From the NCBI RefSeq assembly GCF_009914755.1, contig NC_060939.1: a stretch of DNA of 64,000 nt. One strand, 5' to 3'. The notes beneath the pieces were generated by a model. That model ran no database searches. It had not been told where the DNA came from and was given only the letters and a program-made list of their open reading frames with translations. The position numbers and the translations under genes were made by a program. Shown here in pieces: positions 14,796-63,400 of the stretch; positions within the stretch are counted from its first letter, which is position 1; every line of letters starts with the position of its first letter. This DNA comes from the human T2T-CHM13v2.0 reference genome, Homo sapiens.

Positions 14796-15829
14796 TTGGT
14801 TTAACCTCTGTGATGATTATTTCTACTTTGAAGCTTGTTGCCCTTTTGTTCAGGTTATTGCTGTATGATCATTTGGTGAAGGATACTGCTTTTTGATGGA
14901 CATGATCGCTTGTAAAGGCTTCCCCAGGTCTCTACTGTAGGGAAGAGTGCGCCTGTCCTGATTCAGTCATTTGTAAACTATTGTTATTGTTTGGACAGGA
15001 ATAGCAGATGGCTTAGTCTCACCCTTGTGCACTGAATGCCCTCCACATCACCATGTAATTGTCCTTTCCAGATCATACATTGGGTAAGGAACCTTCTGAT
15101 CTCTGCCCTGTTCTTAATCTCCTTCAACCACTTTCTCTTCCCCTTTGGCTGTTCACCAGTGAGGTCATTTGCTTTATCTCTGGAATATATGAAAAGGCTC
15201 CACCTGTACCTCTCATGTTGTCTTCTCACTTCTGTTTTCTCTACCCAAGGAACCTTGAGTGCCTTTCCTGGGGATTCTGGCCACGGAAACTTCTCCTGTT
15301 CCTCAGGGGCAATAAGGGTATGCGAAAATTCCTCCCCGACTCAGGATCCAGTGGGCTTGCCATGGTGCATTCAGAGGCTCTGCCATCTCTTTAGCATTCC
15401 TTTCCAGGCTGCAGTCTACCCCCTGAGTCCAGCCCACTCAACTTTCTTGTTCAGCTTTGGCATCATCTCATGATTGGAGGGTGCAGCCCTCATTGATAGG
15501 CTGGCATTCTTTCCAGAGTGACAGTGCCAACTCTCTTCTTCTTTCTGCCCTCTCGTCTTCTCTCATGGGCCACAGAGTGGTTGGGAATACAGGTTGTGGG
15601 CAGATAGTAAATGGGGCTTCCAACACCATATTAAGGACTTTGAACTTGTACAAAGTTTATCTGCAGGAGCCATTAAAGGTGATTCCATCTCTACCTTGAA
15701 AAGACCGTTGCTCTGGTGGTGTAAATGAGAGATTGTAGAGGAGAGAGGTGAGAGAAGGGGAGTAGAGGTTCAGAGTACACTCTCAGATATCCTTTATTTC
15801 ACTTCAGTTTCAAAATGTTAATTTGACTG

Positions 15830-16461
15830 TGTAAACCAAAAATAAAATTCTAAGGCCCTCCAACCATCTGAATGAACCCCTCTTCTCAGCCAACGGCATT
15901 CCAACGTTAACCTGAAAAAATGAGTTCAGGCCATGATGGGAGGGGACAGCCAGGCATGCCTCATTATACCCTCCTCCCTTTTGGAATTACTGAAAGAACA
16001 GTAATAGAACAGTGATAGTTCTTTAGGTCTGGTAAGAAACATTTACAACCTGTTCTCTCTGAAGCCTGCTACCTGGAAGCTTCATCAGCACGATGAAACC
16101 TTGGTGTCCACAACCTTTTGTCATGACCGAGACCCTCCTTTCTATTGATGATTCTTTTACCAATTGCCAGTCAGAAAACTTTTAAATCTACCTGTGACCT
16201 GGAAGCTCCCCTGCCTCCTCACCACCCACCCCTGCTTCAAGTTGTCCCACCTTTCTGGACCAAACCAATGTGTATCTTTCATGTATTGATTGATGTGTCT
16301 CATGTCTCCCTAAAATGTATAAAACCAAGTTGTACCCCCAACCCCCTTGGGCACTTGTCATCAGGACCTTCTGAGGCTGTGTCATAGGTGCATCTTTAAC
16401 CTTGGCAAAATAAACTTTCTAAATTGATTGAGACCTGTCTGAGACACTTTTTGGGTTCACA
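15830..16461 (+). mobile_element. Solo ERV1 LTR, MER4 group
   Basis: TG...CA ends (tgtaaaccaaaaataaaattctaagg...gggttcaca); gtataaaaccaag TATA region; caccttgggcac-like box; AATAAA 16409-16414. Confidence 0.85.
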
Positions 16462-17764
16462 CTACCACCTGATTGGTAAAACAGTTGGAGTGGATAGCAT
16501 GTGGATTCTGTGTTAGGCAGCTGTGAGTCTTAGTGACAACTCTACCATCAAAAACCAACCGGTGGCCAGGCAGGCTGTAATGTATAAAGTAGGGGCTTTT
16601 ATGCCTTTTAGTAATTCTTGCAGGATGCTTCTGAGTATTATATAAATTACGTCTGTAACATGTGACTGAGTACCAGGAATGTAGTACCTGTTCAGTAAAG
16701 GTTGGTGTTTAGTTTCCCTCACACCATGAGATATTTGCACTGAGGTCTGAACTTTGAAAACCAGGCATATGTAGTTGATGTTTTTGTATTCCAGATAGTG
16801 TCGCTTTTAATTGACACAGGTAGTGTTCATTAGGTCATGTTAATAAAAGAAATAGTTTTTTTCTAACCATGTATTAAGCTATCCAAAACCCCTGCTTGGC
16901 TGATGTTTATGCTGATTCAGAATGAATTCATGTCATAATTTAAAACTCGTGAACTGAAGTGTTTTTCATTGTACATTGGATTGAAGATCTCACTTAAAAC
17001 TGTGTGGTCTGTGTGAGGTTGTATTACTTTATTGGTTAGGAAACTATATTTCAGGACTTTGAAAAACATTAATTTCTTGTATATTGCAATTAATCTAATT
17101 AGACAAATATTTAAATATTTTTGGAAAACTAATGTTTTATTTCCTTCCCTTCTAATTATTGTCTTTACACATCACAGCAGTATAATCTACTGTAGTCTTT
17201 TATTCAGGGTAACTTATCTTTAAATAATTAAAAAATAAATTTAAAGAGCTTTTAGTTGGTCACCTAAACTATTTTATTGTTTTAAGTACCAATAAATGAA
17301 ACTTTATAATAGTCTTATTGCACAGTTATTAAATATAACATTTCATGATGCCTTTTAATATGTATAATGTTTGTTAATTGAACTTCATTTGGAAAGTGTT
17401 TGAAGATTGTAGTTTTAATTTCTGATGTGTGTGTTTTTCATAGTCCATCTTTTAGCAATTTATAAAGTGAACTATTTCTTTTGGAAGATGACTAAGACAT
17501 TGCTGAAACTATATTGGCCTAGGTCCATTTTTCAAAATCATGATTTGTAAATTTACTTTGAAATTTAACTTTAATTGTTAAAGCAAATCTAACAGTGATT
17601 GCAAGATATAGGAAAGTCATAGCTGCAAGGTCTATATTTTTGATTTAGTATACATTTAAAATATTGCTTCTCAAAGCATATTTTAGAGGGTATGTGTTAT
17701 ATTAATGGTGAAATAAATATATAGGGAGTTGGGCATATAACTCTCTATGGAAAAACCTCTATTT

Positions 17765-60182: not shown

Positions 60183-60485
60183 TGCTTGGATTGAATTGTG
60201 TCCCCCAGACCAAGTTCTTATGTTGAATCTCTAACCTTTACATGACTGTATTGAAGATATGGCCTTTAGGAGGCGATTAAGGATAAGTGAGGTCAGAAGC
60301 ATGGAGCCCTGATCCAATGGAACTGGTGTCCTTATACAAGAGAAAGAGACACCAGAGGTCTCTCATTCCCCACCATGTGAGGACACAGTGAGAATGGAGT
60401 CATCTGCAAGGCAGGAAGTGGGTTTCTGTTGTTTAAGCCACCTAGTAAGTGGTATTTTGTTATAGTCGCCTGAGCTGACTAACTC
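60183..60485 (+). mobile_element. MLT1A-type MaLR LTR, internally deleted
   Basis: tgaattgtgtcccc, ggcctttaggaggcgattaagg, gttgtttaagccacctag...gcctgagctgactaa. Confidence 0.75.
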
Positions 60486-63400
60486 TGTGATCTTAACAGT
60501 TTTAGCCTCGGAGGACGATCTCATTGCTTGTGGCCAAGACTTGTGGCTAAAGAGGAGGTAAGAGCACCATAGTCTACTGCCACATACCAATACCTCCACA
60601 CACATACACACACATGCGGATATATATATATATGTATGGGAGTGTATATATATACCTTTTTATAGGTGTGTGTGTATACACACATAGCTGTTTAGAAGTC
60701 AGTCTCTCTTGTTAGAGTATAAGCTCTTGAAGAGTAGAAATGTCATTTTTCTTCTTCTCCCGGCCTTTCTGCAAACCTTGCTTATATGATATGCATGTAT
60801 ATTGATTCATATTATCACTGCAGTTGACTTTCCAGCCACTGCCAAAGGCTTGGAAAGCCATAAGAAATTTAGTTGTGTTGGGGAAGGGTGATACATGGAG
60901 GCGCTACGTGGGTAGGGCCCTAAAGAAAGGAGTTTCTAAGCATCAGATGAAATGTGAAGAAGCTAAAGTTAAGGGAACTCGGAGGGAGAGGAGCTTATTT
61001 TTTTATTTTTTTCTTCTTATCTAGTTTTTTTCTCCTCATTTTCTCCTCTAGTCAGCACTCTCCTAGTACTTACTTTACAAGACGCTTTTAACATGCATTG
61101 TAAAATCAGCTAAGTATTTAGAAAATGCATACGGTCTATTCTGGTTCTTGCCGTAGGTATTGATGGTGAAATTGGGATTAGACACAGACACTGAAAAAAA
61201 TGACCAGCAATACCAACCAGTCTCTACTCAGTGCTAGATAACCAGTTGAGATGAATGGGGAGGTTATTCTGAGCAGGGTGGTCAGGAAAGGCTTGAAGAG
61301 AACTCCTTTTGAGAATTAGTAAGACTTAGATAGGCAGAGAGTAATACAGATTAGTTAAGTTTGTCTGTGGGGCTAGAAAAATATGAAGGTCTTAGCCCAG
61401 TACCTGCCAGCCACAAGCACCTAACAAGTGCTTACTGCCATGATTTTGGTTGTATTCATTAGTGTTTATAATTATTTTTAACATTGCTTATTTTTCAGAA
61501 TGACATGGAGGTTTGGAGAATTTTAGTGACTTGCTTAATGTCATCCAGCTAGTAAGTGTCAGAGACAGGATCTAACTCCAGGATTGTCTGAATCCTGGGA
61601 CTGTGCGCAGAACTGTGGGTATAACATGAGTTTGGAAGTACAATTCTGCAAATGGGAGAGCTCAGATCTGGAGATAAAAAAAGTTGATCACAAAAGGAAG
61701 ACATTTATTTTTCTGTGTCCACTGTGTCCTTTTAAACACAAGGATAATTATCAAGATTGAATGGGCTCATTGTCATGGTCAATAACTAATAATTATGAAA
61801 GAAAGGATCATTCCCCCTTTCCCATAATCCATGAAATTCCACAATGGGGTATGTCCTTCCCTGACATTTCATTTGGCAGTTGGAGTTGTGAATAACTAGC
61901 TTTGGCATGCACTTACGTGGGTGAGTTGAGTGATTTAGAGAAGTTCCCCATTGAGATATTTCCAGAAATGGCTTGGCAACTGCATAGCTTCAGGTTAGTG
62001 ATCACAGAGAAGTAGAGTGAGAAACCACAGAGGAGAGGAAACGACCTCCAGGTTGCAAAATTAAACAAGTGCGTCAGTTTCTCTACACTTCAATGACGTC
62101 ATTTTTACTATTTTTGTGTGATCTCGAAAGTCGTACCTCAATAAGTGATGGTGTGTCAGAGAGGCAGGTGTGTCAGCTACATCCCAGGGTCCATCATGGG
62201 CTCAGTCTCGCTGTTCTTCTTCCTTCCCTTCGCACCTGTTGAACGCCTGCTTTGTGCTGATGCAGATCCAGACACTAGGGACAGAGTAGTCAACAAAATA
62301 GAAAAAAGTCACCTTCCTCATGGAGTTTCCACTAGGAAAGGTGGCAAGCTATAGATATAATCAGAACATAAAGTGTCATGGAGAGAAAGAAAGCAGAGTA
62401 GGTGCTGGGGGGGAGGTGTTATCATTTTGTACAGAGTGGTCAGGAAGGACCTCTTCCGAGAAGATAACCTTCACACAAAGATATGGAGGAGGTGAGGAAG
62501 TGGGTTGTGTGCATAGCTAGAGAAAAGCCTTCCAGAAAAAGAGAACAGCAAGCATAAAGGCCCCAGGGTAGCAGGAGTGTCCCTGATGTTTCAGGAAGAG
62601 CAAGGAAGCAGTGAGGCTGGAGAGGAGGCAGTGAGGCGGCAATGGGAGGAGATGGCAGAGAAGTGAACAGAAGCCACATCATGTAGGGCGTTCCTATCTT
62701 GTCAGGCAACTCTAGCTGCTTAGTGCACTGAATGAGCGGGATGCACAGGAACCCCATGGGCTCAATGCTGCATCACTCATAGGGCAGAAGGAATCGTTGG
62801 CACACGGGCAGTGCTTGCTGTGTCTGCTGTAGACACTGGGTATAGCAGTAAGTCCAAGCTTTGCCTTGGACAAAAGATATGGAGAAATGGCGCACAGGCT
62901 GATGGGCTGTGGGCAGAGGGAAAATGGCACTGTCCCGAGGCTTCGTCAGCCAGTCTCTGACTTTGTCCTGGTCACTTTCGGTGGGGAATGTTGGAGGGAG
63001 CTAAGAAAGGGACTCAGATTGCTCACCACCTTCATCAAGTTCTTTTGATCCACTCTTCCCAAACACATAGGCTGTTTTATGACTATTACTAATATAATTC
63101 ATAATAATAATAATAAATAGAATAGCAACACCAATCTAATGCTACTTACTGAGGGTTTATGTGTAAGGAACTCTGCTAATTTCTACATAAATATTATCAG
63201 ACCACATCTATTTGGTTTCCTCTGTATGCGAAGAGTCCTCGCACAGTGTCTGTCTGAGAAAAGGCTTTCAGTAAATACCCTCTGAGTGATTTAATTATCC
63301 TAACAACCTATAAGAATCTGTTTTGATCCATTGAGAGATGTTCCCATGTCTTGAATTTTAGGTATATTTTTCAAGGACAGAAAGCTAGAAGGTAGCAGAG

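What the first reader, a model, noticed from the sequence alone, without database searches (positions are those of the whole stretch)
15661..61344. Cluster of locally templated short insertions in the MCTP2 intron: a fossil record of template-switch repair
Seen: at least five short segments have a second copy 1.4-4.9 kb away. They are 53557-53661 to 48668-48772 (105 bp, 2 mismatches), 61242-61344 to 57288-57390 (103 bp, 4), 15661-15763 to 18108-18210 (103 bp, 12), 27418-27456 to 28867-28905 (39 bp inverted, 1), and MLT2A 58396-58441 to 56487-56532 (46 bp, 8). None has a poly(A) tail. Four recipients sit in or next to short tandem or target duplications, and one also carries nested fold-backs. 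Established: polymerase-theta end joining and MMBIR/FoSTeS leave templated insertions from nearby DNA with microhomology and snap-back junctions, and short paired duplications are known in mammalian genomes. Inference: divergences from ~2% to ~17% imply independent events over tens of millions of years, so the locus may break and repair recurrently. Three copies of nearly equal length (103/103/105 bp) may hint at a characteristic synthesis-tract length, or may be coincidence.
Basis: partly seen in the sequence, partly recalled or inferred. Interest (0 to 1): 0.8.

Follow-up and report, generated by a model that had tools for sequence, protein, structure and literature searches.

The report
Short local repair duplications in MCTP2
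Four short DNA pieces here, one from an MCTP2 coding exon, were copied a few kilobases away during ancient DNA repair, which is a known and fairly common kind of scar, not a demonstrated hotspot.

Summary
Four are true local duplications. Their segments have exactly two copies in the whole genome, both in this window, 1.4-4.9 kb apart.

Direction is settled for three:
- A 114-bp piece of the first coding exon of MCTP2 was copied into an old L1 4.9 kb upstream.
- A 46-55 bp piece was copied in inverted orientation into the pseudogene RPL26P5.
- A 103-bp piece was copied into a 26-bp tandem array.

The acceptors carry nested fold-backs, filler, microhomology and 10-26 bp re-copies of the target. 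None has a poly(A) tail.

The fifth pair, and a sixth that I found, are copies of dispersed repeat families.

This is the known class of "repair-mediated duplications" or "doublets" (Pace et al. 2009, PMC2671141).

The hotspot idea is not supported. In 190 kb from four randomly placed windows, the same pipeline plus genome checks left 3 such pairs, against 4 in 64 kb here (binomial P about 0.07, on a window chosen for this feature).

The 103/103/105-bp coincidence has no support. Background pairs were 96-177 bp, and the published median is 147 bp.

Outgroup dating could not be done.

The parts
53550..53661 (+). Donor of pair 1: an internal piece of the first coding exon of MCTP2 (CDS 53378-53842).
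   Evidence: plus the hub annotation. Only two copies exist genome-wide.
48659..48772 (+). Acceptor copy of the exon piece, inserted into an old L1. It is 114 bp with a 2-bp indel; the 109-bp core has 3 mismatches, 2 of them at CpG sites.
   Evidence: L1 paralogues have 13-18 bp where the window has 48619-48800.
48615..48658 (+). Nested fold-back (snap-back) filler at the 5' junction of acceptor 1. 48637-48646 is the reverse complement of 48615-48624, and 48647-48658 of 48628-48639.
48773..48820 (+). 24-bp tandem duplication of the L1 target directly 3' of acceptor 1 (23 of 24 identical by my reading).
57288..57390 (+). Pair 2, copy A (103 bp). Donor or acceptor role is unresolved.
   Evidence: flanks are unique in the genome.
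61242..61344 (+). Pair 2, copy B (103 bp, 96% to A). A tentative acceptor only: an imperfect 9-bp direct repeat lies beside it, which is not significant.
15661..15763 (+). Donor of pair 3.
18106..18212 (+). Acceptor insertion of pair 3 (103-bp copy plus 2 nt at each end). It interrupts the first unit of a 26-bp x3 tandem array spanning 18094-18278.
27403..27463 (-). Donor of pair 4, copied in inverted orientation. The core is 27418-27462; the extension to about 27403 aligns only with gaps.
28852..28916 (+). 65-bp insertion in the pseudogene RPL26P5. It comprises an 11-bp re-copy of the upstream flank, a 46-55 bp donor-derived tract and short filler. It is flanked by a 10-bp direct repeat at 28842-28851 and 28917-28926.
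   Evidence: (in the 20 paralogous copies where both halves matched, the halves abut with an overlap of about 10 bp).

Best explanation
Pairs 1-4 are four separate germline repair scars of the known class called repair-mediated duplications (RDs), also known as doublets.

Proposed mechanism: at a double-strand break or stalled fork, a free 3' end primed on a template 1.4-4.9 kb away on the same chromosome or sister chromatid. It copied about 46-114 nt, came off, and was rejoined to the other end. Short-range extra synthesis accompanied the long jump: snap-back on its own strand, and re-copying of 10-26 nt of the target. That left fold-backs, filler and small tandem or target duplications.

Shown here: local two-copy status, the insertion nature of three acceptors, and the junction anatomy.

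Inferred: the enzyme and pathway (SDSA-like, Pol theta/SD-MMEJ-like, or replicative template switching), and that each flank duplication arose in the same event as its insert.

The number of such scars in this window is within a few-fold of what randomly placed genomic windows show, so no special fragility of MCTP2 needs to be invoked.
For: Copy number: whole-genome searches return exactly 2 places, both local, for the segments of pair 2, pair 1 and pair 3. The RPL26P5 insert matches only 27418-27462.

Locality: 4 of 4 verified pairs are under 5 kb apart. For random placement in 64 kb that probability is 0.15 per pair, or 5e-4 for all four.

Insertion status: 5 of the 10 fetched L1 paralogues matched both flanks, with 13-18 bp between them where the window has 182 bp. 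In one search, all 57 matches other than the pseudogene itself skip query 230-294 apart from the local donor. In the 20 copies where both halves matched, the halves abut with about 10 bp of overlap, which marks a target-site duplication (aligned). Acceptor 3 splits one unit of a 26-bp tandem array whose other two units are intact.

Junction marks: nested snap-backs; an 11-bp re-copy of the flank and a 7-8 nt microhomology at the 3' junction of pair 4; no poly(A).

Timing of flank duplicates: by my count from the printed sequence, the flank duplicates differ about as much as the donor-acceptor pairs do. The values are 1/24 against 3/109, 1/21 against 1/39 to 4/46, and 1/26 to 4/26 against 12/103.

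Literature: Pace et al. 2009 (PMC2671141; Results and section 14 read) describe 824 human RDs with the donor under 5 kb away, mean 162 and median 147 bp, microhomology, filler, deletion or TSD, no poly(A), and exon pieces among the donors.

Background: 3 verified pairs in 190 kb.
Against: No outgroup genome could be consulted, so no orthologous empty site has been seen and the ages rest on 1-12 mismatches.

The direction of pair 2 is unresolved. Its right flanks show a weak collinear similarity (26 of 2000 shuffles reach it), so that tract may be longer or more complex than 103 bp.

The window's density is still 3-4 times my background estimate and about 100 times the published density of 0.62 per Mb of TE DNA. 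The background is only 190 kb, so a modest real enrichment cannot be ruled out.

Three of 4 acceptors carry a target re-copy, against 6 of 39 in Pace's Table 1. A plain RD reading does not predict that.
Confidence: 0.82

Rival explanations
1. Recurrent fragility: this part of MCTP2 breaks unusually often in the germline, so repair scars pile up here.
For: There are 4 verified pairs in 64 kb against 3 in 190 kb of background. That is a rate ratio of about 4, with binomial P = 0.07, or about 0.04 by my hand calculation if the background pair with a weak third hit is dropped. At least two different ages are present. Pace et al. report no tendency of RDs to cluster and a density of 0.62 per Mb of TE DNA (read in PMC2671141), which would make 3-4 in 64 kb rare.
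Against: The window was selected because of these pairs, so a P near 0.05 carries little weight. One random 50-kb window (chromosome 1 near 105.4 Mb) has 2 verified pairs. My background density of about 16 per Mb is far above the published figure, which shows that pipeline is conservative. A full-text search for MCTP2 together with 'fragile site' gave 5 papers, with neither term in any title or abstract (listing only).
Confidence: 0.1
2. All pairs are independent insertions of dispersed repeat families that happen to lie close together.
For: This is true for two pairs. 46960-47033 gave 250 first-look candidates, and the 39 scored hits other than the query itself were at 82-91%. 56470-56550 gave 669 candidates, with 39 such hits at 94-98%. 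In both cases the local partner is no better than these.
Against: Pairs 1-3 have exactly two copies genome-wide. Pair 4's insert matches only its local donor. Pair 1's donor is unique coding sequence.
Confidence: 0.02
3. RNA-templated or retrotransposon-machinery insertion: pieces of nascent MCTP2 pre-mRNA were reverse-transcribed into staggered breaks, which would explain the target-site duplications.
For: All donors and acceptors lie in one transcription unit (hub annotation). Direct repeats of 10-26 bp flank or adjoin three acceptors.
Against: There is no poly(A) at any junction and no splice junction in any insert. The snap-back copies and the re-copied flank are DNA-on-DNA synthesis marks. 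In Pace's sample, none of the 39 proximal duplications had a poly(A)/T tail.
Confidence: 0.04
4. One complex event: pairs 1 and 2 (and perhaps 4), which lie within about 34 kb and have indistinguishable divergence, arose together in a single multi-switch replication accident.
For: Divergences of 3/109, 4/103 and 1/39 cannot be told apart. Pairs 1 and 2 lie within 13 kb of each other.
Against: Each acceptor is a self-contained insertion with its own junction marks. No rearrangement links them. Pair 3 is clearly older.
Confidence: 0.06

Closest known systems
[quoted passage not shown]
   Same: The inserted segment is found at only one other genomic place. The donor is under 5 kb away on the same chromosome, and sizes are about 50 to a few hundred bp. 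There is no poly(A), and junctions show filler, microhomology and TSD. Acceptors are recognised inside repeats by comparison with other copies. Partial exons occur among the donors.
   Different: Pair 4's templated tract (46-55 bp) sits at their 50-bp lower limit, and its acceptor is a processed pseudogene rather than a TE. Three of four acceptors here carry a 10-26 bp target re-copy, against 6 of 39 with a TSD in their Table 1. I could not see their Table S1 (supplements were closed), so the L1 acceptor at 48659-48772 may already be listed there.
[quoted passage not shown] 2004, PNAS)
   Same: [quoted passage not shown]
   Different: That study used identical or nearly identical matches under 100 bp, whereas these pairs are 88-97% identical. 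The paper is not held, so any detail beyond Pace's summary is my recall.
Pol theta-mediated end joining and synthesis-dependent MMEJ scars (Kent et al. 2016, eLife, PMC4912351; Yu and McVey 2010, NAR, PMC2943611; search listing and start of abstracts only)
   Same: Iterative short synthesis in cis (snap-back) and in trans. This matches the nested fold-backs at 48615-48658 and the re-copied flank at 28852-28862.
   Different: From recall, those templated insertions are usually a few to tens of nt copied from within tens of bp of the break. The 100-nt tracts copied from 1.4-4.9 kb away are longer-range. Enzyme dependence cannot be read from sequence.
Replication template switching: FoSTeS/MMBIR, and short-range template switches (Loytynoja and Goldman 2017, PMC5453318; Walker et al. 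2021, PMC7954356; search listing only)
   Same: A polymerase transiently copies a nearby alternative template and returns. Returning behind the exit point would give the target re-copies seen here, and the inverted pair 4 fits a switch to the opposite strand.
   Different: From recall, the short-range events described span tens of bp within about 100 bp, and FoSTeS/MMBIR is usually invoked for kb-to-Mb rearrangements. These scars lie between the two scales.

Membership tests
Repair-mediated duplications (Pace et al. 2009) | The inserted segment occurs at only one other place in the genome. | tested here: met
   Searches return exactly 2 places each. In one search the RPL26P5 insert matches only 27418-27462. 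Not met for pairs 5 and 6.
Repair-mediated duplications (Pace et al. 2009) | Donor and acceptor are on the same chromosome, more than 50 bp and less than 5 kb apart. | tested here: met
   The distances are 4889, 3954, 2447 and 1449 bp.
Repair-mediated duplications (Pace et al. 2009) | The acceptor is an insertion relative to an empty site (other repeat copies or the orthologous locus). | tested here: met
   Met for pair 1 (L1 paralogues) and pair 4 (RPL26 paralogues). Pair 3 has internal evidence only, from the intact tandem units. Pair 2 is unresolved. Orthologous loci could not be examined.
Repair-mediated duplications (Pace et al. 2009) | No poly(A)/T tail; junctions show microhomology, filler, deletion or TSD. 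| tested here: met
   Sequence; direct repeats and fold-backs; microhomology.
Repair-mediated duplications (Pace et al. 2009) | Acceptor insertion of at least 50 bp. | tested here: met
   Pairs 1-3 are 103-114 bp. Pair 4's insertion is 65 bp, of which 46-55 bp is donor-derived.
Pol theta-mediated end joining scar | Templated insertions copied from sequence flanking the break, including snap-back copies. | tested here: met
   Reverse-complement copies of 10 and 12 nt of the adjacent flank at acceptor 1, and an 11-nt direct re-copy of the flank at acceptor 4.
Pol theta-mediated end joining scar | Dependence on POLQ. | not testable with these tools
   This cannot be read from sequence.
L1-mediated retroposition (TPRT) | A poly(A) tail at one end, together with a target-site duplication. 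| tested here: not met
   Direct repeats are present, but there is no poly(A)/T at any junction.
Interspersed repeat family copies | Many copies genome-wide, with the local partner no closer than the distant ones. | tested here: not met
   Not met for pairs 1-4. Met for pairs 5 and 6.

The most novel reading that the evidence does not exclude
The 46-kb stretch of MCTP2 around its first coding exon may be a mild germline hotspot. Its breaks would be repaired in a stereotyped way: one kilobase-range template jump plus a 10-26 nt re-copy of the target. That would point to a locus- or context-specific mode of template switching, for example fork stalling at a fixed obstacle, rather than random break repair.
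Probability: 0.08. Interest if true: 0.5.

Novelty: already known. Interest (0 to 1): 0.15.

Why it matters
The window holds clean, well-resolved examples of a known mutational process. Paralogous repeat copies here serve as empty sites and fix the direction of copying. The exon-derived copy is a small dated snapshot of the MCTP2 exon. It differs at two CpG sites, one of which would read Arg (CGG) where the present exon reads Gln (CAG) at 53591-53593 (my reading). Beyond that the finding is ordinary. It does not establish a fragile locus or a characteristic synthesis length. One by-product may be worth a genome-wide check: in my small sample such pairs occur at about 16 per Mb, far above the 0.62 per Mb of TE DNA reported in 2009.

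Tried and rejected
1. Larger background. The second window in the random order (chromosome 9 near 54.7 Mb) was never fetched. I then skipped it because I recall that region as pericentromeric satellite.

2. Background rows dropped. Searches listed 18 background "two-copy" rows.
- Dropped without a genome search: 7 long rows of 351-873 bp (paired-LTR or L1-like), a 71-bp row on the same diagonal as one of them, and rows of 51 bp at 196, 60 bp at 113 and 56 bp inverted (near-tandem, or duplicates of other rows).
- Rejected after checks: 68 bp at 246 (8 genomic hits), 70 bp at 517 (5 hits), 88 bp inverted (87 hits, low complexity), and 162 bp at 512 (a tandem duplication later split by an Alu).

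3. Window rows set aside. Of the 16 window rows, 8 lie in tandem arrays (1-865 and 53875-54164). Two were not examined further: 42289/42495 at 206 bp, and 46386/46764 flanking an Alu.

4. Exact 18-mer pair analysis. It was too noisy, because Alu k-mers that occur only twice dominate it, and I did not use it.

5. Flank similarity beyond the copies. This was not significant in 6 of 8 tests. Pair 2 right flank scored 26 of 2000. Pair 3 left flank scored 4 of 2000, which is an Alu-like motif that is not collinear.

6. A TSD for pair 2. Only an imperfect 9-mer was found, which is not significant by my estimate.

7. Sources that were unavailable.

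
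Full report

A self-BLAST of the whole window shows about 14 Alu copies and several tandem arrays. All six lie less than 6 kb apart.

The copy at 53553-53661 lies inside the first coding exon of MCTP2 (CDS 53378-53842; sequence).

**Local duplicates or repeat-family copies.** The human assembly could be searched as G000.

| Pair | Segment searched | Result |
|---|---|---|
| 1 | 48664-48772 | exactly 2 places, both local |
| 2 | 57288-57390 | exactly 2 places, both local |
| 3 | 15661-15763 | exactly 2 places, both local |
| 4 | RPL26P5 (28623-29129) | the insert matches only 27418-27462 |
| 5 | 56470-56550 | 669 first-look candidates; 39 scored hits besides itself at 94-98% over 56486-56532, against 83-87% for the local partner |
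| 6 | 46960-47033 | 250 candidates; 39 scored hits besides itself at 82-91% |

Pairs 5 and 6 are therefore repeat-family copies and drop out. Four genuine local two-copy pairs remain, 1.4-4.9 kb apart. Random placement of four pairs in 64 kb would put all of them within 5 kb with probability 5e-4.

**Direction and anatomy, pair 1.**
- The region around 48664-48772 is an old L1. That label is my recognition of the sequence. The tool evidence is 38 dispersed genomic matches to its flanks, among the 40 scored of 242 candidates.
- Five of the 10 fetched paralogues matched both flanks. They have 13-18 bp where the window has 182 bp, at 48619-48800.
- The exon is therefore the donor, and the L1 site 4.9 kb upstream is the acceptor.
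- With one 2-bp indel the copy runs from 48659 to 48772.
- Its 5' junction carries two nested snap-backs. 48637-48646 is the reverse complement of 48615-48624, and 48647-48658 of 48628-48639.
- Its 3' side is followed by a 24-bp tandem duplication of the L1 target.

**Direction and anatomy, pair 4.**
- All 57 matches other than the pseudogene itself skip query 230-294 (window 28852-28916), apart from the local donor.
- In the 20 RPL26-like copies where both halves matched, the halves abut with about 10 bp of overlap.
- The alignment shows a 65-bp insertion flanked by a 10-bp direct repeat at 28842-28851 and 28917-28926.
- The insertion begins with an 11-nt re-copy of the upstream flank. It continues with 46-55 nt copied in inverted orientation from 27403-27463.
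- It ends where the donor's next bases share 7-8 nt with the target.

**Direction and anatomy, pair 3.** The copy at 18108-18210 splits the first unit of a 26-bp x3 tandem array whose other two units are intact. I therefore take it as the acceptor.

**Direction and anatomy, pair 2.** The flanks of both copies are unique in the genome, and no clear target duplication exists. The direction is open.

**Flank duplications.** No junction has a poly(A) tail. In pairs 1, 3 and 4 the flank duplicates differ from each other about as much as donor differs from acceptor (my count). This suggests that each flank duplication arose in the same event as its insert; that is an inference. TRF lists six short two-to-three-copy tandem duplications of 22-45 bp units in 64 kb. 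Having two of them exactly at acceptors is therefore not chance.

**Ages.** The mismatch counts are 3/109 (two at CpG sites), 4/103, 1/39 to 4/46, and 12/103. I used the rate given in PMC2671141, 2.2e-9 per site per year, applied to both copies. The ages come out at roughly 6, 9, 6-21 and 29 million years, with wide errors. Pair 3 is clearly older. The other three cannot be separated.

**What it is.** This matches the published class of repair-mediated duplications (PMC2671141; abstract, Results and section 14 read).
- The paper reports 824 human cases with the donor within 5 kb.
- The mean length is 162 bp and the median 147 bp.
- Junctions show microhomology, filler, deletion or TSD, with no poly(A).
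- Partial exons occur among the donors.
- The authors attribute the events to SDSA-type break repair, and relate them to the "doublets" of Thomas et al. 2004.

The snap-backs and flank re-copies also resemble Pol theta or SD-MMEJ products (PMC4912351 and PMC2943611, listing and start of abstracts only). A replicative template switch that returns behind its exit point would give the same target re-copies. Sequence alone cannot choose among these pathways.

**Hotspot test.** I applied one pipeline to the window and to randomly placed genomic windows. Only 190 kb of background could be fetched. Every short background candidate kept by the pipeline was then checked against the whole genome.

Three background pairs survive:
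- 177 bp at 1389 bp apart, 2 copies genome-wide.
- 96 bp at 1502 bp apart, 2 local copies plus one weak partial hit.
- 175 bp at 844 bp apart, 2 copies genome-wide.

Four were rejected.

The comparison is 4 per 64 kb here against 3 per 190 kb. The conditional binomial gives P = 0.07, or 0.12 if a fourth background pair is counted. One random 50-kb window holds two of the three. The window had been chosen for exactly this feature, so this is no evidence of a hotspot. The control is small, and a few-fold enrichment cannot be excluded.

Pace et al. state that they saw no tendency of RDs to cluster, and give 0.62 RDs per Mb of TE DNA. My background of about 16 per Mb suggests their TE-based count is very conservative.

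**Tract length.** Verified lengths are 114, 103, 103 and about 50 bp here, and 96, 175 and 177 bp in the background. The published median is 147 bp. The 103/103/105 match looks like coincidence.

**Limits.** No primate genome, pangenome, fragile-site map or DSB map was available. The supplements of PMC2671141 could not be opened, so the L1 acceptor may already be catalogued there. Thomas et al. 2004 could not be read.

Noticed in passing
It matches many distant copies at 94-98%, so its donor is not the nearby copy. It looks like a short insertion with a target-site duplication from an unidentified source.
   Followed up: partly
window 48696 and 48703 versus 53585 and 53592: Both internal differences between the exon and its intronic copy are CpG transitions. 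At 53591-53593 the exon reads CAG (Gln) and the copy reads CGG (Arg), by my reading of the frame. The copy may therefore preserve an older state of the MCTP2 codon.
   Followed up: no
background loci L043:3586-3762/4975-5150, L044:1707-1798/3209-3301, L047:4246-4420/5090-5264: Randomly placed windows contain the same kind of two-copy local duplicates, at about 16 per Mb in 190 kb. That is roughly 25 times the 0.62 per Mb of TE DNA published in 2009. The sample is small, but a genome-wide count may be worthwhile.
   Followed up: partly
window 1-865: An AT/AC-rich composite tandem array (periods 16-112), self-similar on both strands.
   Followed up: no
window 53875-54164: A CT/C-rich tandem array of about 290 bp (periods 6-26) begins about 30 bp after the donor splice site of the first coding exon.
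   Followed up: no
window 20632-20717, 24485-24537, 26179-26221, 38169-38226, 42289-42644: Several isolated two-copy tandem or near-tandem duplications with units of 22-45 bp, plus a 151-bp pair 206 bp apart at 77% identity. They are not linked to any dispersed copy.
   Followed up: no
L042:2022-2728 (chromosome 1 near 105.403 Mb): A tandem duplication with a unit of about 196 bp, whose second unit was later split by an antisense Alu. It mimics a 162-bp doublet 512 bp apart and is a trap for doublet pipelines.
   Followed up: yes
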